Source: a bacterium GBS-1
GTDB lineage: Bacteria > Synergistota > GBS-1
Direction of reading: 5' to 3'
Assembly: GCA_001443005.1 (NCBI GenBank)
Contig: LEKQ01000001.1
Coordinates: 594,542-658,541, forward strand
Length of the DNA stretch: 64,000 bases
Shown here: piece by piece, positions 5,572 through 16,479 of the stretch
Layout of the letters: every line of letters begins with the position of its first letter
Position numbering within the stretch: position 1 is the first letter of the stretch
The notes under the pieces: model-generated
The model's database searches: none
What the model saw: only the letters and a program-made list of their open reading frames with translations
Told to the model about the DNA's origin: nothing
Position numbers and translations under genes: made by a program

Positions 5572-5876
5572 CTCCCACCACCCTCTCCCTTAAGCAAGTC
5601 GCCTCTTCCCCTATTACTCACAACGTTATGAACATGCACCCAATCCCCAACCTCGATATCTCGCGTAGCCCTACCTATAACCTCACCGTACTTTATGACA
5701 TCGCCATCCTTTGGAATCCTCCTAACGGCAAACTTATGGCCAAAGGGTATGTCCGCGATCACCCTTACCTCCCTAGACTGGTTAGAGATTCTCACTAACG
5801 CTATCTCACCAGCTTGAATGTCTTCAAGAGCTGTAGCCACGTTATCTGCCCCATCAAGTAAAAGAGCCCTTTTCAT
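5568..5876 (-). CDS. UxaA-family dehydratase small subunit (SAF domain; SuyA-like)
   Basis: 102 aa; SAF-type segment IPFGHKFAVRRIPKDGDVIKYGEVIGRATRDIEVGDWVHVHN; overlaps the large subunit start. Confidence 0.7.
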   Translation of the reverse strand: MKRALLLDGADNVATALEDIQAGEIALVRISNQSREVRVIADIPFGHKFAVRRIPKDGDVIKYGEVIGRATRDIEVGDWVHVHNVVSNRGRGDLLKGEGGGR

Positions 5877-5891: not shown

Positions 5892-7775
5892 CTATAAAAG
5901 CCAGTCTAACCCTAGCTCGATAAGCTTCCAAGGTTGGGGAACGCCCTCTTCATCCCAACCAGACATAAGGTAATAAATCCTCTTGGCCTCCTCGAACTCC
6001 TCCCTAGTAACGAATCTACCCTCATGGATACCCCCTCGGAGAGGCATGTACATCTTTTCTGCCAATCTATCCTCCTTCGAATCCACTCCACTTCTAACGT
6101 TAAACACCCTCATCATGTTCAGTCTTCTTTCCCCAACCTTCATGAGCTCCCATAGGCTCACTTCCCAACCGGTCACCGCGCTAACGGCTTCGACCACCTC
6201 ACTGTAGTTTAAACCCCTTGTAGGAGCCATGCAAAACATGCATATATCGAGGGAGTTCAACATGCTATAAGCTATCATAGTGTAATAGGCGAACCTAACT
6301 TTTCTACCATCAAGATCGAACCAAGGTAATCTCTCATTGATACCCAAGATAGCTATTCTTTCAAGGTTAACGTCTGGAGCGTCAGGACCTATGCTTGGAT
6401 CATGTTCACTCGCCATGTGATCCGCTCCTATAGGACAAACAGAATAGACCAAAGCAAGGGACCTTTTAACCCTCGGCTCATGAGCGGGATACTCAACCCC
6501 TTTGCATTCAACGGCATACCTCTCCGCGTTTCTCCCTATAGCTTGAGCAGCCCTCCTCGACCCTTCAGCCAGAAGTCTCCCTATACCCTCTTTCTTAACT
6601 ATCTTCTCAATAAGGGGTATTACCACATCCTTGTTACCAAACCTCAACTCAAGCCCATCGGTCTCTTCCTCAGTTAATATTCCGTTCTCATAGCAATCCA
6701 TTGCAAAAGCTATAGTTCCTCCCAGGGATATAGTGTCTATGGTGTACTTATTGCAGAGCTCTATAGCCTTAGAGACGATATAGGGGTCATCCACCCCTAT
6801 GTAGGAACCTAAAGCAGCCATAGATTCATACTCCAGGCTGGTGTACTCTTGATCTATCTCAAATGGTTCTCTCGCTCCAACCAACCTCTTACATCTTACA
6901 GGACAAGCATAACACCCGGTCTTTTTCACATCCATTATGGTCTCTATGAAGTCACCTGCAATCTTATCCACACCATCAAATACCCCGCTTCTCCAGTTAA
7001 AGGTGGGTAGCTGCCCACCTGTGCTGAAGAGCTTGGTGGTTATGGTTGTCCCCCACTGGTGCAATCTAAGCTGACCTGGGTAGCTCTTAAACCTGGAAGC
7101 AAAATCCTTGGCTATCTTTACCAACTTACCTTCATCCTTAAACTGGGGTTTTCTCGTCCCCTTAACCACAATAGCCTTCAGCTTTTTAGAACCCATAACT
7201 GCTCCAAGTCCGCATCTACCATGCATATCATGAATATCACAAGCTATGCTTGCAAACCTAACGAGGTTCTCCCCACCTGGGCCTATTCCAAGAATCCTCA
7301 AGCCCCTTTCTCCTAACTCTTTCTCAACCTCTCTAAGAACATCTGCGTTGTGCTTCCCCCAAAGATGCGAAGCATCTTTGATCTCCACATTTCCATCCTT
7401 AACCCAAAGATAAACGGGTTTTGAAGCCCTTCCTTTAACCACTATCGCGTCCAATCCCGCAGACTTTAAGGCCACACCCCAAAATCCACCGGCCTCGCTA
7501 TCAGCTATACCACCGGTCAACGGAGAGACTGAAACAGCCGAATGCCTTGCGAACCCCGGTAAGGGAGCACCCGTCACCACGCTGGGAGCGAAAACTATCA
7601 CGTTCTCAGGAGAATAGGCATCCGTTCCAGGTTTAACGTACTTCAATACATAATAACTTCCAAGACATCCCCCACCTATATATTTCCTGAAAAAGGCCTC
7701 TCCCGGACTCTCATATTCAACCGCCATATTAGAGAGATCCACATGGGCTATCCTATCCCAAAAGCCATATCCCAC
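5892..7775 (-). CDS. aor: Aldehyde:ferredoxin oxidoreductase (tungsten-containing AOR family)
   Basis: 627 aa; AOR N-domain plus Fe-S/pterin-binding region (KPVYLWVKDG..., GPGGENLVRFASIACD, CYACPVRC). Confidence 0.9.
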   Translation of the reverse strand: MGYGFWDRIAHVDLSNMAVEYESPGEAFFRKYIGGGCLGSYYVLKYVKPGTDAYSPENVIVFAPSVVTGAPLPGFARHSAVSVSPLTGGIADSEAGGFWGVALKSAGLDAIVVKGRASKPVYLWVKDGNVEIKDASHLWGKHNADVLREVEKELGERGLRILGIGPGGENLVRFASIACDIHDMHGRCGLGAVMGSKKLKAIVVKGTRKPQFKDEGKLVKIAKDFASRFKSYPGQLRLHQWGTTITTKLFSTGGQLPTFNWRSGVFDGVDKIAGDFIETIMDVKKTGCYACPVRCKRLVGAREPFEIDQEYTSLEYESMAALGSYIGVDDPYIVSKAIELCNKYTIDTISLGGTIAFAMDCYENGILTEEETDGLELRFGNKDVVIPLIEKIVKKEGIGRLLAEGSRRAAQAIGRNAERYAVECKGVEYPAHEPRVKRSLALVYSVCPIGADHMASEHDPSIGPDAPDVNLERIAILGINERLPWFDLDGRKVRFAYYTMIAYSMLNSLDICMFCMAPTRGLNYSEVVEAVSAVTGWEVSLWELMKVGERRLNMMRVFNVRSGVDSKEDRLAEKMYMPLRGGIHEGRFVTREEFEEAKRIYYLMSGWDEEGVPQPWKLIELGLDWLL

Positions 7776-7810
7776 AATTTATCACCCCTTTTAATGGCTT
7801 TAATATCAAA

Positions 7811-8827
7811 CTACTGAGGCAACCTTCTAATATCCCATATTTCCGGGTTAGCGATATTATCGGGCCTCTCTCCCCTTAATACAGATATGACGTTTTTACA
7901 AACCATTTTCGCCATATTAGAGAGCGTTTCTTCAGTATGGGCTGCCATATGAGGCGTAGCAACAACATTATCTAAAGTTAAAATGGGCTCATCAACGGAT
8001 GGGGGCTCTGGATCGAAAACATCCATACCAGCACCTGCTATGACCCCATCCCTAAGAGCCCTATAAAGTGCCCTTTGATCTATCACCGAACCCCTTGCAG
8101 TGTTAACAATTATAGCGTTTCTCTTCATCATGGAGAGCTCCCTTTCGCCTATGAACTTCTCGTTCTCCTTAGTAGCAGGTATGTGTATCGTTATAAAATC
8201 CGCATTTCTAAGAAGATACTCCAGATCTCCAACAAGCTCAGTATCCTCTAACCCCTCTTGCCTAAGAAGCTCTTCGTTAATATATGGATCATAGCCTATA
8301 ACTTTCATAGAAAAACCATACTTGCATATCCTGGCAACCTTTCTTCCGATGTTGCCTAAACCTATAACTCCAAGGGTCTTTCCTGAAAGCTCAAAGCTCT
8401 TAACCTGAAGCCTATAGTTGTAGTTTCCATAAACCCTAAGCTGAACACCCGCATCCCATATGTGCTTCGCAACCGCCATCATCAGACATACGGTATGCTC
8501 AGCAACCGCATTAGCATTCGAGCCCGGTGCATAAACCACTGGAATGCGGTAGGCATTGGCTGCTTCTAAATCCACGTTATCAACCAAAGCCCCATGTTTA
8601 CCTATGACAACGCATCTTTTAGCGGCTTCGATTATACTTCTACCTATGTAGGGATGAACCCTCACGATTATGCCATCATAATCCATAACCTTTTTCAAGA
8701 GATATTCCTCGTCAAGGCTTTCCGCAACATCAACCTTTATCTCCGCTTCTTCCAACATCTTAACCCCATCTGGGTGAATTTCCTGCATCAAAAGGACCCT
8801 TCTTTCAGCCATGATACCCCACCTCAC
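7811..8827 (-). CDS. D-isomer-specific 2-hydroxyacid dehydrogenase (NAD-binding, PGDH/GyaR-like)
   Basis: GKTLGVIGLGNIGRKVA Rossmann motif and catalytic-domain layout of D-2-HADH. Confidence 0.8.
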   Translation of the reverse strand: MRWGIMAERRVLLMQEIHPDGVKMLEEAEIKVDVAESLDEEYLLKKVMDYDGIIVRVHPYIGRSIIEAAKRCVVIGKHGALVDNVDLEAANAYRIPVVYAPGSNANAVAEHTVCLMMAVAKHIWDAGVQLRVYGNYNYRLQVKSFELSGKTLGVIGLGNIGRKVARICKYGFSMKVIGYDPYINEELLRQEGLEDTELVGDLEYLLRNADFITIHIPATKENEKFIGERELSMMKRNAIIVNTARGSVIDQRALYRALRDGVIAGAGMDVFDPEPPSVDEPILTLDNVVATPHMAAHTEETLSNMAKMVCKNVISVLRGERPDNIANPEIWDIRRLPQ

Positions 8828-8839
8828 GTAAAGGCAGTC

Positions 8840-9703
8840 TTAAAGTACCTTCCTTAAGATCTTCGGAATCTCCGATAGCTTAAAGGCTATCTTAGCTCCA
8901 GCATCCTCTAAAACCCTTAGCTTGCTATCCGCACTTCCCGTTTCCCCTTGTATAATGGCCCCAGCATGCCCCATTCTCTTACCCGGCGGAGCCAGTCTAC
9001 CCGCAATGAAGGCTATGACTGGTTTCCTCATGCGCCTTATAACAGCGCTCGCATCCTCCTCACGGCTTCCTCCTATCTCTCCCACGATAACTACAGCCTC
9101 AGTATCGTTATCCCTATCAAACATTTCCAAGATATCAGCTATGTCTACCCCGGTAACTGGATCAGCTCCAATACCCACAACGCTGCTTTCACCGAAACCC
9201 TCATCGTTAAGATATCCAGAGACCTCATAAGAAAGCGTCCCGCTCCTTGAGATGACCCCTACCTTCCCCGGTTTAAACATATTGCCAGGCATTATCCCAA
9301 GCTTACCTACACCGGGAGAGATTACGCCAGGGGTTGTGGGACCAAGCATTACGACGCCCCTCTTCCTCGCAACCTCCCTCATCTCCATGGCATCAGCTAT
9401 GGGAACATGCTCGGGAATAACTACAACAAGCTTTATACCAGCATCTATAGCTTCAAACACAGCATCCTTCGCAGCAAAGGGTGGAGCAAATATAACCGTA
9501 GCATTAACGCCAAACCTCTCTACCGTCTCCTTAACATCATCAAACACTGGAACACCATATACCGTCTCTCCCTTTCTCCCAGGCGTTACTCCTGCCAAGA
9601 TCTTCGTACCATACTCCAACATCCACCTCGTCTGTATGCTTCCCACCCTACCAGTTATACCCTGGACGATAGCCCTGGTCTCATAAGTTAAAAGTATTGC
9701 CAT
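8840..9703 (-). CDS. sucD: Succinyl-CoA synthetase alpha subunit-like (CoA-binding)
   Basis: 287 aa; SucD-type segments IVQGITGRVGS and GPTTPGVISPG; the HAGA motif contains the phosphohistidine. Confidence 0.85.
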   Translation of the reverse strand: MAILLTYETRAIVQGITGRVGSIQTRWMLEYGTKILAGVTPGRKGETVYGVPVFDDVKETVERFGVNATVIFAPPFAAKDAVFEAIDAGIKLVVVIPEHVPIADAMEMREVARKRGVVMLGPTTPGVISPGVGKLGIMPGNMFKPGKVGVISRSGTLSYEVSGYLNDEGFGESSVVGIGADPVTGVDIADILEMFDRDNDTEAVVIVGEIGGSREEDASAVIRRMRKPVIAFIAGRLAPPGKRMGHAGAIIQGETGSADSKLRVLEDAGAKIAFKLSEIPKILRKVL

Positions 9704-9708
9704 AACCT

Positions 9709-10860
9709 TTATCCCCTCTCCTTCTGAGATAAAATCTCCTTAAGCAGATCGATCGCTTTCTCCGTATGGAAAGTTTTTATCAAGTGCACTCCAGCGCTAC
9801 TTAATATCTCCCAGGCCTCTTCCTGTTGATTCCCAACCGCCTTAACCACGATGGGGACATCTTTCGCAAAGCTCTCCCTAGCCTGTTTAACTCCATTAGC
9901 TGCTTCTATAAGGGAGTTCACCCCACCATAAAGATTAATGAGAATTGCCTTTATATTGCCTCTCCTTAAAACGAGCCTTATTGAATCGTTTATGAGCTTA
10001 GCTGTTATTCCACCGCCAGTCTCAAGAAAGTTGGCCGGCCTTAAGCCCTCATCAGCCATCAAATCTACAGTATACATACCCAAGCCCGCACCGCTCGATA
10101 TGAGCCCTATATCTCCATCAAGCACAACATAGGACACACCTATCTCTTTCGCTTCTCTTTCCATATAATCCTCCACGTCGACCTTTTCCAGCTTAGAGAA
10201 ATACTCCTGCCTAAATAAAGCATTATCATCTACTTCTACCTTAGCATCAGCCGCAACGATTCTTCCATCCTTTAAAAGGCATAAAGGATTTATTTCCAAG
10301 ATCGTTAAATCATAGCGAACGAAGGCATCGAACATAGAAGCAGCTATGTGAGAAAGCTTTACCAAAAGCTCCCTCTCAAAGCCCTTTCCCCTCAAAGCTG
10401 ACCTTATCTCATACTCCCTTAAAGCTTCGCTCGGATATTTATCTATTCTCACGAGCCTCTCGGGAAAGAGCTTAACTATCTCCTCTATATCCATGCCACC
10501 GGCATCGCAGAACATGAAGGTACGCTTACCAGATCGCGTATCTATGGTTATCCCCATATATATCTCCCTAGCTATGTCTAAAGCCTCCTCTACAAGGAGC
10601 TTCTTAACTTTAAAACCCCTTATCTCCTTACCAAAAAGCTCAGAAGCAACCTCTTGAGCGGTTTTAGGATCATCCGCAGGCTTAATACCACCCGCCTTAC
10701 CCCTACCACCTATGGGGACCTGTGCCTTAAGCACAACCTTCTTCCCTATCCTCTCGAAAGCGCCGGAAGCTTCCGACGGAGCGCTAATTACTACACCCTC
10801 GGGAACATCTATGCCGATCAGCTTTAAAAAATCCTTCCCCTGATATTCTAAAAGCCTCAT
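9709..10860 (-). CDS. sucC: Succinyl-CoA synthetase beta subunit-like (ATP-grasp)
   Basis: SucC-type N-terminus MRLLEYQGKDFL; track ORF starts 11 codons upstream at 10893, so I trimmed to the internal ATG. Confidence 0.85.
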   Translation of the reverse strand: MRLLEYQGKDFLKLIGIDVPEGVVISAPSEASGAFERIGKKVVLKAQVPIGGRGKAGGIKPADDPKTAQEVASELFGKEIRGFKVKKLLVEEALDIAREIYMGITIDTRSGKRTFMFCDAGGMDIEEIVKLFPERLVRIDKYPSEALREYEIRSALRGKGFERELLVKLSHIAASMFDAFVRYDLTILEINPLCLLKDGRIVAADAKVEVDDNALFRQEYFSKLEKVDVEDYMEREAKEIGVSYVVLDGDIGLISSGAGLGMYTVDLMADEGLRPANFLETGGGITAKLINDSIRLVLRRGNIKAILINLYGGVNSLIEAANGVKQARESFAKDVPIVVKAVGNQQEEAWEILSSAGVHLIKTFHTEKAIDLLKEILSQKERG

Positions 10861-10870
10861 CTCTCTTCCC

Positions 10871-11410
10871 TCACCCTTTCTTGAATATATCAAAGGCAGC
10901 CCTTAAGGCTTTTAAGTTTAAATCCCTAGTAGCAGGAGGTACCCTATTAAGCATGGCAGCCTCGAGCGATTCCCTTTTTACTATTCCTGTTAATGAGACC
11001 AAAACCCCCAAAGCCACTATGTTCGCAGATAAAGGCTTACCTGTCTCCCTTATGGATATCTCTGTTATAGGAAGCTCGTATATCTCAACGTCAGAGCGAG
11101 GTTTGACCTCCTTGATATAAAGTGTATCAATGATGATTAATCCTCCCTCTTTGACGCTCTCACCGTATTTATCCAGCGCATCTTGAGTCATAGCAAGTAA
11201 TATATCTGGTCTTTCGATCTCTGGGTAGTTTATCTCCTCATCGCTTATGATGATCTCGGACCTACTTGCACCACCTCTTGCCTCGGGACCATAGGACTGA
11301 TTATGCGTAGCGTTCTTTCCCTCATAAATCACCGCAGCCTCCGCAAGGATAATCCCTGCGAGAACCAGACCTTGACCACCGTAACCGCTTAACACTATCT
11401 CCTTCCTCAT
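10871..11410 (-). CDS. 2-oxoacid:ferredoxin oxidoreductase gamma subunit
   Basis: 179 aa; POR/KOR/VOR gamma-type GYGGQG motif. Confidence 0.8.
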   Translation of the reverse strand: MRKEIVLSGYGGQGLVLAGIILAEAAVIYEGKNATHNQSYGPEARGGASRSEIIISDEEINYPEIERPDILLAMTQDALDKYGESVKEGGLIIIDTLYIKEVKPRSDVEIYELPITEISIRETGKPLSANIVALGVLVSLTGIVKRESLEAAMLNRVPPATRDLNLKALRAAFDIFKKG

Positions 11411-12235
11411 TTAACCTTCCCCACCTTCAGCTAATTTTCGCCTTAACTCCTCATAAAGCTCCGTATACTCTCTCTTCTCCTTATTAACGAAGAGCTCGCC
11501 TATCAAAAACTTATCCTTCATCTCCTCGAGACTATACCTTTGAGCCTGTTGAACTAAAACAGCATGTTCCTTCTGCCACATCAGCATCTCATAAGGAGTT
11601 CTCATCCTATTTCTTCTCCCATAACCTACAGGACATTGAGAGACAACCTCAATGAAGCTAAAGCCCTTATGAGCGATGGCCTTAGCTATAAGATCAGCCG
11701 TTAACTGAATATGATAAACGGTGCTTCTTGCGATGAAGGTCGCTCCTGCCGCCTCAACAAGCTTGCATATGTCGAAGGATGGTTCAATGTTGCCGTAGGG
11801 AGCTGTTGTAGCATAGGTACCTTGAGGGCTTAAAGGGGAATACTGCCCACCTGTCATACCATATATACTGTTGTTTATAAGTATTGTAGTTATGTCTATG
11901 TTCCTTCTAGCAGCGTGGATCAGATGATTTCCCCCTATCGCCGCACCATCGCCGTCTCCCGTAATAACTATCACCTTCATATCGGGACGCATCAACTTAA
12001 AGCCTGTAGCGAAAGCTAAAGTCCTACCGTGAGTCGTTTGAATGGTGTTAAAGTCCACTATCACGTTGGTCCTTGCCGAACAGCCGATCCCGGTGAAAAG
12101 GACGATTTCATCCTTGCTCAACCCAAGCTTATCAACCGCCATGATCAAAGCCCTCACCACTGAACCGTTACCACAGCCCGGACACCATATATGAGGAAGC
12201 TTGCTTAACCTTAGATACTTCTTTATATCAAGCAT
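11411..12235 (-). CDS. korB: 2-oxoacid:ferredoxin oxidoreductase beta subunit (TPP-binding)
   Basis: CPGCGNG and TGDGD TPP-binding motifs; start trimmed to the internal ATG. Substrate (2-oxoglutarate vs pyruvate vs branched-chain) is not determinable from sequence. Confidence 0.8.
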   Translation of the reverse strand: MLDIKKYLRLSKLPHIWCPGCGNGSVVRALIMAVDKLGLSKDEIVLFTGIGCSARTNVIVDFNTIQTTHGRTLAFATGFKLMRPDMKVIVITGDGDGAAIGGNHLIHAARRNIDITTILINNSIYGMTGGQYSPLSPQGTYATTAPYGNIEPSFDICKLVEAAGATFIARSTVYHIQLTADLIAKAIAHKGFSFIEVVSQCPVGYGRRNRMRTPYEMLMWQKEHAVLVQQAQRYSLEEMKDKFLIGELFVNKEKREYTELYEELRRKLAEGGEG

Positions 12236-13373
12236 GGCTAAACACCTCTTTAATCGCATCAACTATCTCCCAAGGAGATATCATCTTGCCATCAACCCTA
12301 TTAATTCTAACAGCTTTCCTACAAATGCATCTTTCCACCTCTCCTACAAGCTGCCCCATGTTCATCTCAGGCACGACAACAACCTTAGCTCTTTTCGCAT
12401 ACCCCTCTACAACTTCGCCAGGGAAAGGCCAAAGGGTTTGTAACTGCAAAAGCCCAGCTCTTATCCCGCCCTCCCTCAGCATGTTAACTGCATCCTTGGC
12501 AGACCTCGCTGTACACCCATAGGCTACGATAAGCACGTCAGAATCCTCAACCCTATAGGTCTTATAATAAGTTATCTCCTTCCTATAAAACTCTATCTTC
12601 TTGTGAAGTCTCCTTATAAGCTCATTCGCCACCTTATGGTTATATGTTGCTGGGAAGCCCTCCTCATCATGTACATTACTAGTTACGTGATATCTGTACC
12701 CCTTACCGCGATAGGCGAAATCAGGAACACCGTCAGGCCCAGCGGCAAAAGGCTTATATTGCTCAGGCGGCAAGTTAGTAACTCTCCTATTAACTATCCT
12801 TATCCTGCTCGGATCTGGCAAAGTTACCTTCTCCCTTACGTGACCAACCACCGCATCGGAAAGAAGGATCACCGGATTTCTAATGAGCTCAGATATATTA
12901 AAGGCCTCTATAGTTAACTCAAAGGCCTCTTGAACCGTAGCAGGGCATAAGACAACTATAGGATGGTCTCCATGCGTTCCCCACCTCGCCTGCATGACAT
13001 CTCCCTGCGCAGGAAGGGTCGGTAAACCCGTGCTCGGCCCACCCCTTTGCACATCCACTATGACGCAAGGAATGTCAACTATTGTGGCATATCCCAAGTT
13101 CTCCTGCATTAAGGTAAATCCAGGACCACTCGTTGCAGTCATGGCCTTAAAACCAGCCATAGATGCTCCTATAACCGCAGCGATGCTAGCTATCTCATCC
13201 TCCATCTGAATGAATACCCCACCTACCTGAGGCATCCTAAGAGCCATCATCTCGGCTATCTCTGTAGCTGGAGTTATCGGATAACCCGCGAAGAACCTCA
13301 CTCCAGCTAAGATGGCTGCCTCAGCTATAGCCTCATTACCTTGCATGAATCGCACATCCTCCTTAAGGCTCAT
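12228..13373 (-). CDS. korA: 2-oxoacid:ferredoxin oxidoreductase alpha subunit
   Basis: 381 aa; GNEAIAEAAILAGVRFFAGYPITP alpha-subunit N-terminus. Confidence 0.85.
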   Translation of the reverse strand: MSLKEDVRFMQGNEAIAEAAILAGVRFFAGYPITPATEIAEMMALRMPQVGGVFIQMEDEIASIAAVIGASMAGFKAMTATSGPGFTLMQENLGYATIVDIPCVIVDVQRGGPSTGLPTLPAQGDVMQARWGTHGDHPIVVLCPATVQEAFELTIEAFNISELIRNPVILLSDAVVGHVREKVTLPDPSRIRIVNRRVTNLPPEQYKPFAAGPDGVPDFAYRGKGYRYHVTSNVHDEEGFPATYNHKVANELIRRLHKKIEFYRKEITYYKTYRVEDSDVLIVAYGCTARSAKDAVNMLREGGIRAGLLQLQTLWPFPGEVVEGYAKRAKVVVVPEMNMGQLVGEVERCICRKAVRINRVDGKMISPWEIVDAIKEVFSHA

Positions 13374-13597
13374 TCCTCTTCCCCCTCCCGCACCTCAACA
13401 GCATAATCAGGACACCTGAGCTCACAGCTTCTACAACCTACACACATCTCCTCGCGCATAACCCTAACCTTACCATCGCTTGTAAACTCAAAAACCTTCT
13501 TAGGGCAAAACTCTACACATATACCACAAGACTTACACCACTTAGTATTCAGAACAACCTTAAACCTCTTAGTCAAGGCAATCACCCCTTCTTTCAA
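13370..13597 (-). CDS. 2-oxoacid:ferredoxin oxidoreductase delta subunit (2x[4Fe-4S] ferredoxin)
   Basis: 75 aa with two cysteine clusters, CKSCGICVEFCP and CVGCRSCELRCP. Confidence 0.8.
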   Translation of the reverse strand: MKEGVIALTKRFKVVLNTKWCKSCGICVEFCPKKVFEFTSDGKVRVMREEMCVGCRSCELRCPDYAVEVREGEEE

Positions 13598-13602
13598 AGC
13601 GC

Positions 13603-13821
13603 TTAGCCGCCCGACATGATATATGTAACTACTATCTCGTCACCATCCCTAACTATCCTCGAGCTATACTCCCTCCTGGGCAAGACATCCCTATTCAAGA
13701 ACACAGTCATATAAGAGATATCATAACCAAGCTTCTCTAAAAGCTCCCCCACGGTCATCTCACCTTCCAAATTAACTTCCCTATTATTCACCTTAACAAG
13801 CATCTCCTCCATTTCCTCCAA
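13603..13821 (-). CDS. ThiS/MoaD-family small sulfur-carrier-like protein
   Basis: About 66-72 aa ending in GG (…DGDEIVVTYIMSGG); true start probably the ATG giving MLVKVNN... Confidence 0.55.
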   Translation of the reverse strand: MEEMEEMLVKVNNREVNLEGEMTVGELLEKLGYDISYMTVFLNRDVLPRREYSSRIVRDGDEIVVTYIMSGG

Positions 13822-13896: not shown

Positions 13897-15552
13897 TCAC
13901 TCCAGGGATCTTCTAACCGCTCCCTTTGACGCGCTCTCAACGAAAAGCCTATAATATCTCAGGTAGCTGTTTTCAGGTATAAAGGAGCGATTGACCTCCT
14001 GTACCTCTCCTTTTCTCCTTTTATATTCTTCCTCTGATATCAATAGGTCTACCCTCTTCCTCCCGAGGTCTATCCTTATAACATCACCATCCCTAACTAT
14101 GGAGAGCGGTCCTCCTGCCGCCGCCTCAGGGGAAACATAAGCTATAGAGATGCCGTAAGAAGCCCCGCTAAGCCTGCCATCGGTTATGAGTGCAACGTTC
14201 TTATATCTATTTATTATCTCAACACACCTATGAAGCTCCCTCATGCCCGGACCTCCACAAGGCCCCTCGTATCTTATGATGATAACCTCCCCATCCTTAA
14301 GGTCATTGCTTGATGCATACTCCATAAACTCATCCTCCGAGTTAAATACCCTAGCTACCCCTTCAAAGGGATCCTTCAAAACGTCCACCAGCGCAGACAC
14401 CTTAAGCAGGGCTCCATCAGGAGCAAGGTTTCCTCTCAAGACTTTTATAGCTCCACCCTTAGCTATGGGGTCGGAAACCGATCTTATGATTGACTTCAAA
14501 GGCCTGAATCCCTCACTCTTCCCAATGATATCCCTCCAGGTATCGTTAAGGACCGTCTTTCTATCAAGGTTAAGATAATCCTTTAGTTCTCTTATCAATG
14601 CAACCACTCCGCCAGAAAAATACAGATCTATAACGGTATTCTCGTCGCTATTGGGAGTAACTTGAGCAATCAGGGGAACACTCTCGCTTATCCTCTCAAA
14701 ATCCTCCATGCTTATCTCTATCCTTAGCTCATGAGCTATGGCAGGAATGTGAAGAACAGCGTTTAGAGAACCACCTATAGCCATAACTACAGCTATTGCA
14801 TCCTCAAAAGCTTCCCTCGTCATTATCGCCGAAGGTTTCAAGCCCATCTCTATTAAGCGAACAGCTTGCTCTCCGGTTAATCTAGCTAAGTTATATCTCT
14901 GACTTGTTCCCGCTGGAGTTAAAGCTGACCCTGGCAATCCCACACCCAAAACCTCAGCTACTATACACATGGTATTTGCCGTTCCCAAAAATGGGCAAAC
15001 ACCTGGACCAGGATAATACCTCTCCGTGATGTCAAGCAGCTCATCCTCGGAGACCTTACCCTCAAGAAAGCTCCTTCTCGCCATCTTGGACTCCTTAGGC
15101 TTGATATAGTTGCACATCGGTCCTGCTCCCAACCAAATAGAGGGAAGGTCTATCCTAGCCATAGCCATAAGCATACCAGGGACGATCTTGTCGCAGGAGG
15201 AGAGAAAAACCAAACCATCGAATATATCGTGTCCCTTCACCATAGATTCTATCGAATCAGCGATCAACTCCCTGCTTGGGAGGCTATATTTCATGCCCTT
15301 ATGCCCCTGAGCTATACCATCGCATATAGCTATCGTGTTGAACTCGATTGGAACTCCACCAGCCTTGTAAACCCCTTCTTTTACCTTCTCGGCCAGGTCT
15401 CTTAAAGGGACATGCCCAGGGACTATTTCGTTCCAAGAGTTGACTATACCTACTATGGGCTTGTTAAGATCCGCTCGGGAAAAACCACAAGAAATTAGAT
15501 GCCCCTTTATAAGCTGTCTAACGTAGTTCGGAAAAGCACTCAATCGGTTCAT
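13897..15552 (-). CDS. IlvD/EDD-family dehydratase, paralog 2
   Basis: [30 protein letters not shown] and [11 protein letters not shown] motifs; 551 aa. Confidence 0.85.
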   Translation of the reverse strand: MNRLSAFPNYVRQLIKGHLISCGFSRADLNKPIVGIVNSWNEIVPGHVPLRDLAEKVKEGVYKAGGVPIEFNTIAICDGIAQGHKGMKYSLPSRELIADSIESMVKGHDIFDGLVFLSSCDKIVPGMLMAMARIDLPSIWLGAGPMCNYIKPKESKMARRSFLEGKVSEDELLDITERYYPGPGVCPFLGTANTMCIVAEVLGVGLPGSALTPAGTSQRYNLARLTGEQAVRLIEMGLKPSAIMTREAFEDAIAVVMAIGGSLNAVLHIPAIAHELRIEISMEDFERISESVPLIAQVTPNSDENTVIDLYFSGGVVALIRELKDYLNLDRKTVLNDTWRDIIGKSEGFRPLKSIIRSVSDPIAKGGAIKVLRGNLAPDGALLKVSALVDVLKDPFEGVARVFNSEDEFMEYASSNDLKDGEVIIIRYEGPCGGPGMRELHRCVEIINRYKNVALITDGRLSGASYGISIAYVSPEAAAGGPLSIVRDGDVIRIDLGRKRVDLLISEEEYKRRKGEVQEVNRSFIPENSYLRYYRLFVESASKGAVRRSLE

Positions 15553-15588: not shown

Positions 15589-16479
15589 TCATAGCAAACC
15601 AAGCCTCCTTAAGCCCTCTTTTATCTTTTCCCTTACCTCTTCGCTCGCTGGTCTGAAGGGTTCTCTCGGATACATCTTTATCCCGCGTAGGTTAACCATG
15701 GTATAAGCTCCTACGGTAGTGGTATTAGCGAGCCTCATAAGGTCTCTAACGGCCATCACCCTATTGTGAACCTCTATCACCTTATCCTTAGGGGCACCGC
15801 TCATCACCACATCATAAAGCTCCTTACAAAGCTCTGGAAAAGCGTTACCCAACCCTGGAATAAAGGCTTTGATGCCCAAAGAGGACGCAGGAACAAACAG
15901 AGCCTCGGTTCCTAAAACCACATCGAAGCCTTCTTTTTCTACCTTTCTCTTGAAATCCGATAGGACCATCAAATCGAAGCTACTATCCTTAACACCATGC
16001 ACACCTATATCCGCCAACCTCTTAAGCAAGCCCACGCTAACGGCATACCCGACAGTTTTGGGATTGTTATAAACATAAACAGGCACATTAACTGCATCAA
16101 CGATTCTTTTGAAATAAAATAAGACATCCTCCTCGGCATGATGATAGTAGAAAGGAGGAACCGCTGAAACAGCATCAGCACCTATCTCCTCAGCGTGTTT
16201 AGCGAGCTCAACAGCATCCCTCGTGCTTATGCTTCCCACATGAACAATAACCGGGACCCTCCCCCCGACCTCCTTCACAATTATCTCCGCAACCCTCTTT
16301 CTCTCCTCGAGGCTAAGCAAAGGTCCGCAGCCATAGGTCCCAAGGATGAAAAGGCCATCCACCGTCCCTAAAAGGAAGCTCGTAAAATCCCTCAAAGCTC
16401 CCTCATCTATATCGCCGTTTGCATCGAAGGGAACGATCATCGGCGGAATTACCCCTCTCAACTGGGTGATACCCATCAA
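15589..16479 (-). CDS. DapA/NAL-family class I aldolase or dehydratase (dihydrodipicolinate synthase family; 2-keto-3-deoxy-acid aldolase-like)
   Basis: 296 aa; GVIPPMIVPF..DGLFILGTYGCGPLLSLEER layout typical of DHDPS/KDG-aldolase family. Confidence 0.8.
   Translation of the reverse strand: MMGITQLRGVIPPMIVPFDANGDIDEGALRDFTSFLLGTVDGLFILGTYGCGPLLSLEERKRVAEIIVKEVGGRVPVIVHVGSISTRDAVELAKHAEEIGADAVSAVPPFYYHHAEEDVLFYFKRIVDAVNVPVYVYNNPKTVGYAVSVGLLKRLADIGVHGVKDSSFDLMVLSDFKRKVEKEGFDVVLGTEALFVPASSLGIKAFIPGLGNAFPELCKELYDVVMSGAPKDKVIEVHNRVMAVRDLMRLANTTTVGAYTMVNLRGIKMYPREPFRPASEEVREKIKEGLRRLGLL

What the first reader, a model, noticed from the sequence alone, without database searches (positions are those of the whole stretch)
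5892..13597. Ferredoxin-linked oxidation module: tungsten AOR, D-2-HADH, succinyl-CoA synthetase-like pair and four-subunit 2-oxoacid:ferredoxin oxidoreductase in series
Contiguous genes for AOR, a D-2-hydroxyacid dehydrogenase, sucD/sucC-like and oxidoreductase delta/alpha/beta/gamma subunits suggest aldehyde to acid, then 2-oxoacid to acyl-CoA, then acid plus ATP, with all electrons passing to ferredoxin. Linking an AOR to sugar-acid dehydratases would be an anaerobic replacement for NAD(P)-dependent aldehyde dehydrogenases. The 2-oxoacid substrate cannot be decided from sequence; the SCS-like pair could also act on a different acyl-CoA.
Basis: partly seen in the sequence, partly recalled or inferred. 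Interest (0 to 1): 0.65.

Follow-up and report, generated by a model that had tools for sequence, protein, structure and literature searches.

The report
Ferredoxin-linked sugar-acid oxidation gene module
An uncultured anaerobic bacterium packs a tungsten-type aldehyde oxidoreductase next to 2-oxoglutarate:ferredoxin oxidoreductase and succinyl-CoA synthetase inside a long sugar-acid breakdown operon, which probably gives an oxygen-free, ferredoxin-based and ATP-yielding version of a pathway that aerobes run with NAD-dependent enzymes; the genes are certain, but the chemistry is inferred.

Summary
Window 5892-13597 (minus strand) encodes AOR, a D-2-hydroxyacid dehydrogenase, SucD, SucC and OFOR gamma, beta, alpha and delta. 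Cofactor motifs are intact and gaps are 0-35 nt. A ThiS/MoaD-like gene at 13603-13803 also belongs to the block.

The block lies in a 28-gene, single-strand array of at least 29 kb that also holds transporters, dehydratases, an aldolase-like protein, a kinase and a LarA-like racemase.

The same eight genes recur as orthologues in three further loci: two in the same order, and one permuted with no dehydratase on its 10-kb contig. A looser version occurs in a fourth locus. So this is a real module, not chance adjacency.

The OFOR is KGOR-type, so 2-oxoglutarate is the likely substrate. KorDABC-SucCD is itself a widespread operon. AOR orthologues also occur with the IlvD/SDR/kinase genes and no KOR or SCS.

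In aerobic Bacillaceae, the closest annotated relatives of the adjacent split UxaA-like dehydratase sit beside 2-oxoglutarate-semialdehyde dehydrogenase (gucD).

My best reading (confidence about 0.4) is that AOR replaces the NAD(P)-dependent aldehyde dehydrogenase of a non-phosphorylative sugar-acid route, and KOR plus SCS then turn 2-oxoglutarate into succinate plus ATP. The aldehyde, the role of the 2-HADH and the direction of flux remain unproven. I rate it a new variant of a known kind, of moderate interest.

The parts
5892..7775 (-). Aldehyde:ferredoxin oxidoreductase (AOR family, 627 aa). It stands alone, with no partner-subunit genes.
   Evidence: Pfam AFOR_N and AFOR_C. The best solved relative is P. 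furiosus AOR 1AOR at 368 bits, with the four cluster cysteines, Glu313 and His448 conserved. The GAPOR model scores only 44.7 bits against a 1300 cut-off. A 100% identical protein is P0001.
7811..8827 (-). D-isomer-specific 2-hydroxyacid dehydrogenase, of the PGDH / glyoxylate-reductase-like subgroup. The substrate is unknown and the true start may be a few codons downstream.
   Evidence: Pfam 2-Hacid_dh and 2-Hacid_dh_C. It is below every NCBIfam equivalog cut-off (PGDH 301.8/454, glyoxylate reductase 252.9/455). Best PDB hits are 1WWK, McyI and Pyrococcus glyoxylate reductase. Orthologues are 77% identical in L002 and 61% in L085.
8840..9703 (-). Succinate-CoA ligase alpha subunit (SucD).
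   Evidence: TIGR01019 377.8 bits (cut-off 353.2) and NF004230 370.2 bits (cut-off 336). The GHAGA phosphohistidine motif is present.
9709..10860 (-). Succinate-CoA ligase beta-like subunit (SucC), belonging to a variant lineage.
   Evidence: NF001913 357.7 bits (cut-off 370) and TIGR01016 341.8 bits (cut-off 375.55). It reads 'ISSGAGLGM' and 'NLYGGVNSLIE' where E. coli has 'VNGAGLAM' and 'NIFGGIVRCD'. All 120 best database hits share this signature.
10871..11410 (-). 2-oxoacid:ferredoxin oxidoreductase gamma subunit (KorC).
   Evidence: Pfam POR 138 bits. The best NCBIfam model is NF006323 at 221.4 bits against a 235 cut-off.
11411..12262 (-). 2-oxoacid:ferredoxin oxidoreductase beta subunit (KorB, TPP and [4Fe-4S]). 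The likely start is the ATG at 12235.
   Evidence: TPP_enzyme_C. The best NCBIfam model is '2-oxoglutarate ferredoxin oxidoreductase subunit beta' at 324.8 bits against a 364 cut-off. The cysteine motifs and GDG-X25-NN are present.
12228..13373 (-). 2-oxoacid:ferredoxin oxidoreductase alpha subunit (KorA).
   Evidence: NF006412 563.5 bits (cut-off 411). The 2-oxoglutarate synthase alpha model gives 401.7 bits, VorB 309.8 and PorA 123.9. PDB hits are P. furiosus 2-keto acid:Fd OR alpha 1YD7 at 449 bits, then 2-oxoglutarate synthase 8YS5 at 295 and M. marinus OGOR 6N2N at 244.
13370..13597 (-). 2-oxoacid:ferredoxin oxidoreductase delta subunit (KorD, 2x[4Fe-4S]).
   Evidence: Two CxxCxxCxxxCP motifs appear in the translation. 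The best NCBIfam models are OorD at 56.9 bits (cut-off 93) and OGOR_delta at 53.5.
13603..13803 (-). ThiS/MoaD-like sulfur-carrier protein (66 aa, C-terminal GG). It is part of the conserved block and probably serves pterin cofactor synthesis for AOR (inference).
   Evidence: TIGR01683 53.7 bits (cut-off 37.45); Pfam ThiS. The start was read from the sequence. It holds the same position in L002 and L173. ThiS-like genes also lie next to AOR homologues in L006 and L088, where there is no KOR.
13897..15552 (-). IlvD/EDD-family dehydratase 1, a likely sugar-acid dehydratase.
   Evidence: ILVD_EDD_N/C. The ilvD model gives 581.5 bits, below the 618 cut-off, and edd gives 312.9. It is conserved upstream of the block in L002, L173 and L003.
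15589..16479 (-). DHDPS/NAL-family class I aldolase-like protein.
   Evidence: Pfam DHDPS. NCBIfam scores are NAL 156, DapA 151, archaeal KD(P)G aldolase 150 and KdgD only 78. The catalytic Tyr137 and Lys164 are kept.
16499..18802 (-). FGGY-family kinase (16499-18028) and SDR oxidoreductase (18044-18802).
   Evidence: Pfam. The best NCBIfam models are gluconokinase at 388.8 bits (cut-off 648) and gluconate 5-dehydrogenase at 250 bits (cut-off 279). Both are conserved with IlvD1 and AOR in L003 and L173.
18795..26337 (-). Two TctCBA tripartite tricarboxylate-type transporters (18795-21877 and 23326-26337), with an Fe-alcohol dehydrogenase (21955-23109) between them.
   Evidence: Pfam TctA/B/C and Fe-ADH. 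The Fe-ADH is 76% identical to the one next to AOR in L003.
4414..5876 (-). Split UxaA/GarD-family dehydratase: a SAF small subunit (5568-5876) and a GD_AH large subunit (4414-5571).
   Evidence: Pfam SAF, GD_AH_second and GD_AH_C. It is 50-55% identical to 'UxaA family hydrolase' pairs on Bacillaceae and haloarchaeal plasmids, about 40-43% to altronate dehydratases and about 37% to GarD. Neighbours in those records include gucD and fucose-type oxidative pathway genes.
349..4417 (-). Ldh_2-family 2-hydroxyacid dehydrogenase (3359-4417), LarA-like nickel-pincer racemase/epimerase (2046-3329) and IlvD/EDD dehydratase 2 (349-2094).
   Evidence: Pfam. NCBIfam scores are L-sulfolactate DH 329/500, malate racemase LarAH6 400.8/500 and ilvD 775, above the 618 cut-off. 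The LarA catalytic His/Lys/His are present in the translation.

Best explanation
The block thiS-like / korDABC / sucCD / D-2-HADH / AOR is the ferredoxin-linked, energy-conserving end of an anaerobic, non-phosphorylative sugar-acid catabolic island.

Proposed sequence of steps:
1. Sugar acids enter through the TTT transporters.
2. IlvD/EDD-type and split UxaA-type dehydratases convert them to 2-keto-3-deoxy acids.
3. These are processed further to an aldehyde. The most coherent candidate is 2-oxoglutarate semialdehyde. Glycolaldehyde or glyceraldehyde from an aldolase branch is the alternative.
4. The stand-alone AOR oxidises the aldehyde to the acid and reduces ferredoxin. It takes the place that 2-oxoglutarate-semialdehyde dehydrogenase (GucD) or another NAD(P)-dependent aldehyde dehydrogenase holds in aerobes.
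5. The KGOR-type four-subunit OFOR oxidises 2-oxoglutarate to succinyl-CoA plus CO2, again reducing ferredoxin.
6. SucCD releases succinate and makes ATP.

The D-2-HADH, together with the LarA-like racemase and the Ldh_2 enzyme further down, most simply feeds 2-hydroxy-dicarboxylates such as 2-hydroxyglutarate into the same 2-oxoacid pool.

Shown here: gene identities, intact cofactor motifs, operon-like packing, and conservation of the block. Inferred: every substrate, the direction of flux, and the use of tungsten.
For: 1. Family assignments and intact motifs.
2. Tight co-directional packing: gaps of -8 to +35 nt within the block and no gap above 216 nt in the 28-gene array. The scan found no terminator-like site in any intergenic gap of the array.
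3. Whole-block orthology in other loci. In L002, AOR is 79% identical, KorA 79%, SucC 74% and HADH 77%, in the same order. L173 has the same order and was found through SucC at 73%. In L085 the figures are AOR 65%, KorA 70%, SucC 58% and HADH 61%, but the order is permuted to AOR-KorDABC-SucCD-HADH. L005 carries KorABC-SucCD-LarA-HADH-AOR, with AOR at 57%.
4. The link is specific to a clade. Every locus whose KorA is at least 63% identical carries an AOR-family gene (L093 at 93%, L002 at 79%, L085 at 70%, L094 at 63%; L173 carries one too, its KorA identity not computed). None of about 75 loci at 52-60% does.
5. The OFOR scores as KGOR/Oor-type. For alpha, the 2-oxoglutarate synthase model gives 401.7 bits against VorB 309.8 and PorA 123.9, and the best beta and delta models are the 2-oxoglutarate ones. 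The PDB ranking is P. furiosus KGOR-like, then 2-oxoglutarate synthase, then M. marinus OGOR, far above POR and OOR.
6. KorDABC lies directly upstream of SucCD in 6 of 8 independent loci with this SucC lineage, including a Nitrososphaerota locus with no catabolic genes. This argues for a genuine 2-oxoglutarate to succinate unit.
7. The closest annotated relatives (54-55% identical) of the split UxaA-like dehydratase that abuts AOR sit next to gucD, together with FAH- and DHDPS-family genes, on Priestia megaterium and Metabacillus plasmids. Others sit in oxidative fucose-type clusters.
8. AOR orthologues at 68-71% identity lie next to IlvD/EDD plus SDR, with an FGGY kinase, Fe-ADH and an Eda-type aldolase as well in L003.
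Against: - No recognisable 2-oxoglutarate-semialdehyde-forming enzyme is present. There is no FAH-family gene in the window. The DHDPS-family protein scores poorly on the KdgD model (78 bits) and better on aldolase models (about 150 bits). It keeps the Tyr that the KdaD type replaces with Glu (PMC13398020). In L003 its place is taken by an Eda-type aldolase. All this points to pyruvate plus a C2/C3 aldehyde rather than 2-oxoglutarate semialdehyde.
- The FGGY kinase and the 2-HADH have no role in a Weimberg-type scheme.
- The block occurs without dehydratases in L085.
- KorDABC-SucCD with LarA, HADH or UxaA-like genes occurs without AOR in L174, L175 and L180.
- SucC is below the SCS cut-offs and lacks canonical motifs.
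- No 2-oxoglutarate-specific NCBIfam equivalog cut-off is reached.
- All relatives are uncultured or uncharacterised, and there are no expression or activity data.
Confidence: 0.4

Rival explanations
1. This is a mosaic without shared chemistry. AOR, with the Fe-ADH, belongs to the TTT / SDR / FGGY / aldolase / IlvD module. That module would be a modified Entner-Doudoroff or Dahms-type route in which an aldolase releases pyruvate plus glyceraldehyde or glycolaldehyde, and AOR oxidises the aldehyde as proposed for archaeal non-phosphorylative ED. KorDABC-SucCD-HADH (with LarA and Ldh_2) is a separate hydroxy-dicarboxylate / 2-oxoglutarate module. The two share only an operon and the ferredoxin pool.
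For: - L003 has Eda aldolase-TctCBA-SDR-FGGY-IlvD-HADH'-FeADH-AOR with no KOR or SCS.
- L012 has a split transketolase-IlvD-SDR-AOR.
- L175, L174, L180 and L181 have KOR-SCS without AOR.
- The DHDPS-family protein looks like an aldolase.
- A use of AOR for glyceraldehyde in Thermoproteus tenax is discussed in PMC2063504 (listed).
Against: - L085 and L005 keep AOR directly fused to KorDABC-SucCD-HADH without the SDR/FGGY/IlvD set on the same contig.
- In the window, AOR is 6 kb away from the aldolase and sits between HADH and the UxaA-like dehydratase.
- No glycerate kinase family gene was seen among the annotated ORFs of the window.
Confidence: 0.25
2. This follows the Thermococcales-style scheme. 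2-oxoglutarate, from 2-hydroxyglutarate, glutamate or sugar acids, goes through KGOR and SCS to succinate plus ATP. AOR only scavenges the succinate semialdehyde that the OFOR forms by non-oxidative decarboxylation, or other stray aldehydes. It is therefore a parallel safety valve and not a pathway step.
For: - KorA is very close to a P. furiosus 2-keto acid:ferredoxin oxidoreductase alpha subunit (449 bits), and AOR is closest to P. furiosus AOR.
- The decarboxylation of 2-keto acids to aldehydes followed by AOR is the accepted model for Pyrococcus, as restated in PMC9246946.
- L094 links an AOR with SucCD, KorDA, a class III aminotransferase, a beta-hydroxyacid dehydrogenase and a 4-hydroxybutyrate-CoA-transferase-family gene. 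That is a succinate-semialdehyde context.
- LarA plus D-2-HADH next to SucCD in 4-5 of 8 loci fits entry through 2-hydroxyglutarate.
Against: - The AOR in L094 is only 45% identical, so it belongs to a different clade.
- A scavenger would not be expected to keep strict synteny.
- AOR orthologues also sit in clusters that have no OFOR.
Confidence: 0.12
3. This is a strict in-series chain on a non-canonical substrate: 2-hydroxy-aldehyde to 2-hydroxyacid (AOR), to 2-oxoacid (2-HADH), to acyl-CoA (OFOR), to acid plus ATP (variant ligase). One example is glyceraldehyde to glycerate to hydroxypyruvate to glycolyl-CoA to glycolate. Another is 3-sulfolactaldehyde to sulfolactate to sulfopyruvate to sulfoacetyl-CoA to sulfoacetate.
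For: - The SucC-like subunit lacks canonical motifs and is below the cut-offs.
- HADH is always the immediate neighbour of SucD or AOR.
- For the sulfonate version: the SAF plus GD_AH architecture equals that of SuyAB. The best NCBIfam model for the Ldh_2 protein is L-sulfolactate dehydrogenase at 329 bits. A ComB-family phosphatase gene follows IlvD2. ComA and ComB genes lie near KOR-SCS in L180. TTT transporters import sulfolactate in known systems (PMC10507020).
Against: - The variant SucC lineage also occurs as plain KorDABC-SucCD in an archaeal housekeeping context, so it is probably a true SCS.
- The OFOR is KGOR-like.
- The GD_AH protein matches no record annotated as sulfolactate sulfo-lyase, and its nearest annotated relatives are in sugar-acid clusters.
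- There are no sulfite reductase or exporter genes in the array.
- No paper links AOR with sulfolactaldehyde.
Confidence: 0.08
4. This is a closed ferredoxin loop. Ferredoxin reduced by KOR is re-oxidised by AOR running in the acid-reducing direction, so that 2-oxoglutarate goes to succinyl-CoA, to succinate plus ATP, and then to succinate semialdehyde and on to an alcohol through the Fe-ADH. The reverse is also possible, with aldehyde oxidation driving reductive carboxylation of succinyl-CoA.
For: - It would explain why AOR, an OFOR and an ATP-forming ligase are kept together with no hydrogenase or Rnf genes nearby.
- Acid reduction by AOR is documented in Thermoanaerobacter and C. autoethanogenum (PMC10816221 and PMC12727526, both listed).
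- L094 has a succinate-semialdehyde / 4-hydroxybutyrate-type context.
- An Fe-ADH lies in the same array, with partial similarity to 4-hydroxybutyrate dehydrogenase (264.7 bits).
Against: - There is no direct evidence.
- The Fe-ADH is 14 kb from AOR and scores better as lactaldehyde reductase.
- The catabolic setting favours oxidation.
- Acid reduction needs very low-potential ferredoxin and a high acid concentration.
Confidence: 0.07

Closest known systems
Weimberg pathway and oxidative glucarate/galactarate pathway (aldonate or aldarate dehydratase, then KdaD/KdgD/XylX, then 2-oxoglutarate-semialdehyde dehydrogenase GucD/AraE/XylA, giving 2-oxoglutarate)
   Same: Both use sugar-acid dehydratases of the IlvD/EDD and UxaA/GarD families and a DHDPS-family protein. 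An aldehyde-oxidising enzyme is encoded directly beside the dehydratase. The nearest annotated relatives of the split dehydratase lie next to gucD.
   Different: The aldehyde step would be carried by a ferredoxin-dependent AOR instead of an NAD(P)-dependent aldehyde dehydrogenase. No recognisable semialdehyde-forming dehydratase (KdgD, KdaD or FAH type) is present. The product is not handed to a TCA cycle but to an operon-encoded KOR plus SCS.
Non-phosphorylative Entner-Doudoroff branch of anaerobic archaea (Thermoproteus tenax; the original 'pyroglycolysis' proposal for P. furiosus AOR)
   Same: Both combine a sugar-acid dehydratase, a DHDPS-type KD(P)G-aldolase-like protein, and an AOR-family enzyme that oxidises the released aldehyde with ferredoxin (PMC2063504).
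   Different: This is a bacterial locus. The dehydratase is IlvD/EDD-type rather than of the enolase superfamily. No glycerate kinase gene was seen in the window. An FGGY kinase, KOR, SCS and a 2-HADH are interleaved.
Thermococcales peptide fermentation module (KGOR plus an ADP-forming acyl-CoA synthetase, with AOR oxidising aldehydes derived from 2-keto acids)
   Same: Both have a four-subunit delta-alpha-beta-gamma KGOR-type enzyme whose alpha subunit is the best PDB match (1YD7, 449 bits). Both have an AOR closest to P. furiosus AOR, ATP made from the acyl-CoA, and ferredoxin as the only acceptor.
   Different: The ligase is SucCD-type rather than the archaeal ACD type. The genes are fused into one operon with sugar-acid genes. 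The host is a bacterium.
korDABC-sucCD operons of anaerobic Bacillota and Archaea (incomplete or reversible TCA segment)
   Same: The same six genes occur in the same order, with the same SucC lineage signature.
   Different: Here and in four other loci the six genes are flanked by AOR and a D-2-HADH (in L094 by AOR alone), and in the window group also by a ThiS-like gene. Here the operon is also embedded in a catabolic island.
Sulfolactate degradation (SlcHFG TTT transporter, SlcC, ComC, SuyAB)
   Same: The protein families match: a TTT transporter, an Ldh_2 (ComC-like) dehydrogenase and a two-subunit SAF plus GD_AH lyase/dehydratase. A ComB-family gene lies at the end of the array.
   Different: No match is annotated as SuyB, and the nearest annotated relatives are in sugar-acid clusters. 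There are no sulfite-handling genes. The Ldh_2 score of 329 bits is below the 500 cut-off.

Membership tests
AOR family (tungsto-pyranopterin aldehyde:ferredoxin oxidoreductases) | AFOR_N plus AFOR_C domain architecture, about 600-630 aa | tested here: met
   PF02730 scores 241 bits and PF01314 scores 375 bits, both full length.
AOR family (tungsto-pyranopterin aldehyde:ferredoxin oxidoreductases) | Four cysteines ligating the [4Fe-4S] cluster, plus the active-site Glu313 and His448 (P. furiosus numbering) | tested here: met
   The alignment to 1AOR shows CYACPVRC, EYES, GADH and DICMF aligned with the P. furiosus residues.
AOR family (tungsto-pyranopterin aldehyde:ferredoxin oxidoreductases) | Tungsten (not molybdenum) bis-pyranopterin cofactor; aldehyde oxidation with ferredoxin | not testable with these tools
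   Metal content and activity need biochemistry. No tup/wtp or moa/moe genes lie in the window. Only a ThiS/MoaD-like gene is present.
GAPOR (glyceraldehyde-3-phosphate:ferredoxin oxidoreductase) | Match to the GAPOR equivalog model | tested here: not met
   NF040818 scores 44.7 bits against a 1300 cut-off, and the match is only partial.
2-oxoglutarate:ferredoxin oxidoreductase (KGOR/Oor type, four subunits) | Separate delta, alpha, beta and gamma genes. Beta has TPP motif GDG-X-NN and cluster cysteines. Delta has two 4Fe-4S motifs. | tested here: met
2-oxoglutarate:ferredoxin oxidoreductase (KGOR/Oor type, four subunits) | Closer to characterised 2-oxoglutarate enzymes than to POR, VOR, IOR or OOR | tested here: met
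   For alpha, the 2-oxoglutarate synthase model gives 401.7 bits, VorB 309.8, PorA 123.9 and IOR 79. The best beta and delta models are the 2-oxoglutarate ones. The PDB order is 1YD7, then 8YS5, then 6N2N, far above 9BT4 and 5C4I.
2-oxoglutarate:ferredoxin oxidoreductase (KGOR/Oor type, four subunits) | Reaches a curated 2-oxoglutarate-specific equivalog cut-off; 2-oxoglutarate is the preferred substrate | tested here: not met
   Alpha scores 401.7 (cut-off 579), beta 324.8 (364) and delta 56.9 (93). Only the generic alpha model NF006412 passes. Substrate preference itself cannot be tested here.
Succinyl-CoA synthetase (SucCD) | Alpha subunit above the curated cut-off, with the phosphohistidine motif | tested here: met
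   TIGR01019 scores 377.8 against 353.2, and GHAGA is present.
Succinyl-CoA synthetase (SucCD) | Beta subunit above the curated cut-off, with canonical 'NGAGLAM' and 'FGGI-x-RCD' loops | tested here: not met
   The scores are 357.7 against 370 and 341.8 against 375.55. The loops read SSGAGLGM and YGGVNSLIE. The same signature is present in all 120 nearest database relatives, including ones that NCBI names SCS beta.
D-isomer-specific 2-hydroxyacid dehydrogenases | Catalytic and NAD-binding domains; assignment to a substrate-specific equivalog | tested here: inconclusive
   Both domains are present. Every equivalog model is below its cut-off, and the best are PGDH and glyoxylate reductase. The PDB neighbours have mixed substrates.
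Weimberg / oxidative aldarate pathway | An enzyme forming 2-oxoglutarate semialdehyde (KdgD, KdaD or an FAH-family dehydratase) | tested here: not met
   No FAH-family protein appears among the window ORFs scanned. The DHDPS-family protein scores 77.7 bits on KdgD against a 374 cut-off. It has Tyr where the KdaD type has Glu (PMC13398020).
Weimberg / oxidative aldarate pathway | A sugar-acid dehydratase and an aldehyde-oxidising enzyme encoded together | tested here: met
   AOR lies 15 nt from the split UxaA-like dehydratase. Relatives of that dehydratase lie next to gucD.
Non-phosphorylative ED pathway | KD(P)G aldolase, an aldehyde oxidoreductase and a glycerate kinase | tested here: inconclusive
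   An aldolase-like DHDPS protein (150 bits on the archaeal KDG aldolase model, cut-off 390) and AOR are present. No glycerate kinase family hit was found in the window.
SuyAB sulfolactate sulfo-lyase system | A two-subunit SAF plus GD_AH enzyme orthologous to SuyAB, with sulfite disposal genes | tested here: inconclusive
   The architecture matches. None of 468 plasmid records with a match is annotated as a sulfo-lyase among the 85 listed, and the hits in Pseudosulfitobacter, Sulfitobacter and Paracoccus (genera I expected might carry suyAB) are only 36-39% identical. No sulfite reductase or exporter family was seen in the array.

The most novel reading that the evidence does not exclude
AOR, the KGOR-type OFOR and the SucCD-type ligase form a self-contained ferredoxin loop. 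Electrons released when 2-oxoglutarate is oxidised to succinyl-CoA are used by AOR to reduce the succinate released by the ligase to succinate semialdehyde, which then goes on to 4-hydroxybutyrate. The net reaction would be '2-oxoglutarate to succinate semialdehyde plus CO2' with one ATP conserved. This would be an energy-conserving substitute for a simple decarboxylase. The same enzymes run the other way would be an aldehyde-driven CO2-fixing C4-to-C5 extension.
Probability: 0.07. Interest if true: 0.8.

Novelty: new variant of a known kind. Interest (0 to 1): 0.48.

Why it matters
Oxidative, non-phosphorylative sugar and sugar-acid pathways (Weimberg, Dahms, aldarate, non-phosphorylative ED) are known almost only from aerobes and a few archaea. 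They depend on NAD(P)-linked aldehyde dehydrogenases and a respiratory TCA cycle.

A conserved operon that swaps the aldehyde dehydrogenase for a ferredoxin-dependent AOR, and adds KOR plus SCS, would explain how strict anaerobes could use aldonates and aldarates. Such anaerobes include Synergistota- or Clostridia-like organisms in digesters and the subsurface. They would gain one ATP by substrate-level phosphorylation and four low-potential electrons per C5 unit, available for H2 or for syntrophy.

It would also give a defined physiological substrate context to one bacterial AOR clade. Most bacterial AORs still lack one.

The eight-gene block is a compact candidate cassette for engineering ferredoxin-coupled conversion of pentose acids to succinate.

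Tried and rejected
- **Exact-sequence look-up of the AOR.** It found nothing, although the homology search then returned a 100% identical JGI protein (P0001). The source contig was not retrieved directly. L093 is essentially the same genome.
- **Cluster-member look-up for organism names.** It gave no names. The only taxonomic hints are the gene order and the label 'Synergistetes bacterium' on a 73% SucC relative.
- **Promoter and terminator scans.** The counts are not above shuffles. A TTGATG-17-TATACT match in the IlvD1-thiS gap (13863-13835) and an 11/12 match at 29154-29125 are leads only.
- **Rfam scan.** No riboswitch or any other RNA family was found in the window.
- **Literature searches.** I searched for AOR with sugar acids and semialdehydes, for AOR with KOR, SCS and 'gene cluster', for AOR with sulfolactaldehyde, and for tungsten with ketoglutarate semialdehyde. 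None described this gene combination. The library is incomplete, so this is weak evidence of novelty.
- **DHDPS-family protein as a KdgD or KdaD dehydratase.** Rejected on model scores and on the Tyr/Glu position.
- **Split UxaA-like enzyme as SuyAB, GarD or UxaA.** It is equidistant from GarD and UxaA (37-43%), and no hit is annotated as SuyB.
- **2-oxoglutarate-binding residues.** I tried to find published residues so that I could read specificity from the alignment. No usable source was in the library, so specificity rests on model and PDB ranking.
- **Sporomusa LarA.** I tested whether the Sporomusa plasmid LarA-like gene next to a UxaA pair is an orthologue of the window LarA. It is not; only a 59-residue local match was found.
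- **Variant SucC motifs as proof of a new substrate.** Rejected, because the same lineage occurs in a plain KorDABC-SucCD archaeal locus.

Full report
**1. What is there**

- AOR, 5892-7775.
- D-2-hydroxyacid dehydrogenase, 7811-8827.
- SucD, 8840-9703.
- SucC, 9709-10860. The true start is probably the ATG that gives MRLLEYQGK.
- OFOR gamma, 10871-11410.
- OFOR beta, 11411-12262.
- OFOR alpha, 12228-13373.
- OFOR delta, 13370-13597.

The proteins look functional.
- AOR aligns over its full length to P. furiosus AOR (368 bits). It keeps the four cluster cysteines and the Glu313/His448 pair.
- KorB carries the cluster cysteines and GDG-X25-NN.
- KorD has two CxxCxxCxxxCP motifs.
- SucD has GHAGA.

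A 66-aa ThiS/MoaD-like protein ending in GG lies at 13603-13803, 5 nt upstream of korD.

**2. Setting**

The block is not a separate island. It lies in the middle of a run of 28 genes on one strand, from 29096 down to the window edge. Gaps within the block are -8 to +35 nt, and no gap in the run exceeds 216 nt.

In transcription order the run reads as follows:
- PEP-hydrolase-like protein, UPF0261 protein, and an ORF with no family match.
- TctCBA transporter.
- Fe-ADH.
- Second TctCBA transporter.
- SDR, FGGY kinase, DHDPS-family protein, IlvD/EDD dehydratase 1.
- ThiS-like, KorDABC, SucCD, 2-HADH, AOR.
- SAF plus GD_AH (a split UxaA/GarD-type dehydratase).
- Ldh_2 dehydrogenase, LarA-like racemase, IlvD/EDD dehydratase 2.
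- A partial ComB-family phosphatase gene that runs off the window.

The rest of the window is a housekeeping block (phoH, ybeY, era, recO, glyQS, ppdK, H+-PPase, dnaG, sigA). It contains no tungstate transport, pterin synthesis, hydrogenase or Rnf genes.

Consensus promoter and terminator scans are not enriched over shuffles. The only notable sites are an 11/12 promoter match at the head of the array and a 9/12 match in the IlvD1-thiS gap. Rfam finds nothing.

**3. Is the adjacency meaningful?**

Yes.

Starting from the AOR:
- L002 (AOR 79% identical) has the same order.
- L085-L087 (AOR 65%, a Clostridia MAG) have orthologues of all eight genes (56-72% identical), permuted to AOR-KorDABC-SucCD-HADH. 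They follow an SSF transporter and a cyclophilin-like gene, and there is no dehydratase on the 10-kb contig.
- L005 (AOR 57%) has KorABC-SucCD-LarA-HADH-AOR.

Starting from KorA in JGI metagenomes:
- Of the 80 best loci, only the near-identical L093 and L094 (KorA 63%) carry an AOR-family gene.
- About 75 loci at 52-60% identity have KorDABC alone, with SucCD present in a few.

Starting from SucC:
- L173, labelled a Synergistetes MAG (SucC 73%), repeats the window's order from TctC to LarA.

The link between AOR, KOR, SCS and HADH is therefore a conserved, clade-specific unit.

**4. The unit is also separable**

- AOR orthologues at 68-71% identity occur without KOR or SCS directly beside them. 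L003 reads Eda-type aldolase-TctCBA-SDR-FGGY-IlvD-HADH'-FeADH-AOR. L012 reads split transketolase-IlvD-SDR-AOR.
- At 52-55% identity AOR sits in quite different clusters.
- KorDABC-SucCD of the same lineage occurs without AOR. In Gelria sp. Kuro-4 it sits with LarA, SAF/GD_AH, 2-HADH and IlvD. In L180 it sits with TctBAC and LarA. In L174 it sits with 2-HADH, LarA and Ldh_2. In a Nitrososphaerota MAG it sits among housekeeping genes.

Across eight independent loci with this SucC lineage, the counts are:

| Neighbour | Loci (of 8) |
|---|---|
| An OFOR adjacent | 8 |
| KorDABC directly upstream of SucC | 6 |
| LarA | 5 |
| D-2-HADH | 5 |
| AOR | 4 |

The window is best seen as a mosaic of three parts:
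- An uptake, dehydratase, aldolase and kinase part.
- A KOR-SCS core, with hydroxyacid dehydrogenases and a racemase.
- An AOR that travels with either of the other two.

**5. Which 2-oxoacid?**

It can be narrowed.
- KorA passes the generic alpha model. It scores 401.7 bits on the 2-oxoglutarate synthase alpha model, against 309.8 for VorB, 123.9 for PorA and 79 for IOR.
- The best beta and delta models are the 2-oxoglutarate ones.
- Among solved structures the order is P. furiosus 2-keto-acid:ferredoxin oxidoreductase alpha (449 bits, roughly 60% identical as I read the printed alignment), then a 2-oxoglutarate synthase (295), then Magnetococcus OGOR (244). POR and oxalate oxidoreductase fall below 70 bits.
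- Together with the conserved fusion to SucCD, this makes 2-oxoglutarate to succinyl-CoA to succinate plus ATP the default reading.

Two caveats apply.
- No 2-oxoglutarate-specific equivalog cut-off is reached.
- The SucC-like subunit is marginally below both SCS-beta cut-offs, and it replaces the canonical 'VNGAGLAM' and 'FGGIVRCD' loops with 'SSGAGLGM' and 'YGGVNSLIE'. This signature is shared by all 120 nearest relatives, including the stand-alone archaeal operon. I therefore read it as a lineage trait of a genuine SCS. It remains untested.

**6. Which aldehyde?**

The AOR is nearest to the broad-spectrum AOR clade and is not a GAPOR.

The strongest contextual clue comes from the gene that abuts it. 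The split UxaA-like dehydratase is 50-55% identical to annotated pairs on Bacillaceae plasmids.
- On Priestia megaterium pNCT2_4 and Metabacillus pBY2G20 these pairs lie beside gucD (2-oxoglutarate-semialdehyde dehydrogenase), FAH-family genes and a DHDPS-family gene.
- In two other Bacillus plasmids they lie in lactonase-SDR-FAH-FucU clusters typical of the oxidative fucose route.

This subfamily therefore consists of sugar-acid dehydratases, and in aerobes an NAD-dependent semialdehyde dehydrogenase sits where the window has AOR. If AOR oxidises 2-oxoglutarate semialdehyde, then the downstream KOR and SCS make chemical sense. An anaerobe without an oxidative TCA cycle could convert the Weimberg-type end product to succinate, with one ATP and four electrons on ferredoxin.

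Evidence against this reading:
- No enzyme that forms the semialdehyde is recognisable. There is no FAH-family gene.
- The DHDPS-family protein scores 78 bits on KdgD but about 150 on aldolase models.
- It keeps the Tyr that KdaD enzymes replace with Glu (PMC13398020).
- It is replaced by an Eda-type aldolase in L003.

An aldolase would give pyruvate plus glycolaldehyde or glyceraldehyde. AOR would then act as in the archaeal non-phosphorylative ED branch (PMC2063504), and KOR-SCS would be a neighbour rather than the next step.

**7. Other readings**

- **Thermococcales model.** OFORs leak aldehydes and AOR oxidises them (PMC9246946). This fits the archaeal affinities of both enzymes. It also fits L094, where an AOR, SucCD and KorDA sit with a class III aminotransferase, a beta-hydroxyacid dehydrogenase and a 4-hydroxybutyrate-CoA-transferase-family gene.
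- **Strict in-series chain through the 2-HADH.** This has no specific support. A sulfonate version is suggested by several features: the SuyAB-like architecture, a ComC-like Ldh_2, a ComB-family gene and TTT transporters. Against it, the nearest annotated relatives of the dehydratase are in sugar-acid clusters, no hit is annotated as SuyB, and no sulfite genes are present.
- **Closed ferredoxin loop with AOR reducing succinate.** This is not excluded and would be the most novel outcome.

The 2-HADH is PGDH / glyoxylate-reductase-like. Given its constant position next to SucD, and the frequent company of LarA- and Ldh_2-type enzymes, oxidation of 2-hydroxyglutarate or a similar hydroxy-dicarboxylate to the KOR substrate is the simplest role. 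That is an inference. LarA homologues are shown to act on malate, tartrate, 2-hydroxyglutarate and pentarates in PMC7583248 and PMC11770544.

The ThiS-like gene also accompanies AOR homologues where no KOR is present (L006, L088). A MoaD-like role in pterin cofactor synthesis is therefore more likely than thiamine synthesis for KOR.

**8. Verdict**

- The idea of a ferredoxin-linked oxidation module, with AOR standing in for NAD(P)-dependent aldehyde dehydrogenases beside sugar-acid dehydratases, is backed by comparative context.
- The 2-oxoacid is most likely 2-oxoglutarate.
- The linear chain through the 2-HADH is not established, and the module is separable from the dehydratases.

I found no published description of this gene combination in the searchable library. 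Each component, and the general logic, is known from archaea and aerobes. I rate it a new variant of a known kind. It is of moderate interest and directly testable with a small set of enzyme assays.

Noticed in passing
window 1-343 (-): There is a partial gene of the ComB / 2-phosphosulfolactate phosphatase family (PF04029, 109.9 bits). It starts 5 nt after the stop of IlvD2, so the co-directional array continues beyond the window edge. ComA and ComB genes also lie a few kb from KorDABC-SucCD in L180.
   Followed up: partly
window 9709-10860 (-); P0246-P0365: The SucC-like subunit belongs to a large, widely distributed lineage in Bacillota, Bathyarchaeia, Nitrososphaerota, Anaerolineae and others. 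In this lineage the canonical SCS-beta loops 'VNGAGLAM' and 'FGGIxRCD' read 'xSGAGLxM' and 'YGG(V/I)N(P/S)xxx'. Sources annotate members inconsistently as SCS beta, acetate-CoA ligase family or ATP-grasp protein.
   Followed up: partly
window 26524-29096 (-): The head of the array holds a PEP-hydrolase-like protein, a UPF0261 protein and a 157-aa ORF with no Pfam match. The array's best promoter-like site (TTGATA-18-TATAAT at 29154-29125) precedes them. Their function is unknown.
   Followed up: no
window 12228-13373 (-): KorA of this bacterium is much closer to a Pyrococcus furiosus 2-keto-acid:ferredoxin oxidoreductase alpha subunit (PDB 1YD7, 449 bits) than to the bacterial 2-oxoglutarate synthase structures (295 and 244 bits). 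This suggests a shared archaeal-type lineage or an inter-domain transfer.
   Followed up: no
L094 500-11134: A more distant relative of the module (KorA 63%, AOR 45%) reads AOR / acetyl-CoA hydrolase-transferase family / beta-hydroxyacid dehydrogenase / class III aminotransferase / SucC / SucD / thiolase / KorD / KorA. This looks like a 4-aminobutyrate / succinate-semialdehyde / 4-hydroxybutyrate cluster.
   Followed up: partly
L005 6889-7479 and 7949-9856: A 196-aa AFOR_N-only fragment lies just upstream of the full-length AOR gene, so it is a partial duplication or a pseudogene remnant. A radical-SAM gene follows the AOR. It is possibly a cofactor-maturation gene like the one next to archaeal aor genes, but that comparison is from memory.
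   Followed up: no
L001 versus L012: Two loci have 71%-identical AORs and the same downstream genes (UPF0158, AP endonuclease 2, Fur, ArsP) but different upstream regions. L001 has KorBC-SucCD, racemase and amidohydrolase genes and a DDE transposase directly before AOR. L012 has LarA, TctABC, a split transketolase, IlvD and an SDR. This is evidence of recent rearrangement around the AOR.
   Followed up: partly
L183 and L184 (Bacillus sp. F19 and S3 plasmids): Split UxaA-family pairs sit in lactonase-SDR-UxaA-SDR-FAH-FucU clusters next to GH95 fucosidases. This suggests that the subfamily can replace the enolase-superfamily L-fuconate dehydratase in the oxidative fucose pathway.
   Followed up: no
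window 2046-3329 (-): The LarA-like protein keeps the catalytic His/His, the Lys tether and the Ni-binding His. It has 'GHE' where the malate-racemase groups are reported to have 'GHK' (PMC7583248), and it is below the malate racemase cut-off (400.8 against 500). It may act on a related dicarboxylic hydroxyacid.
   Followed up: partly
window 1-64000: GC skew is negative in 31 of the 32 2-kb bins I profiled. Nearly all genes are on the minus strand, and there are no tRNA genes and no Rfam matches. This fits a long leading-strand stretch of a genome with strong purine loading of the coding strand.
   Followed up: no
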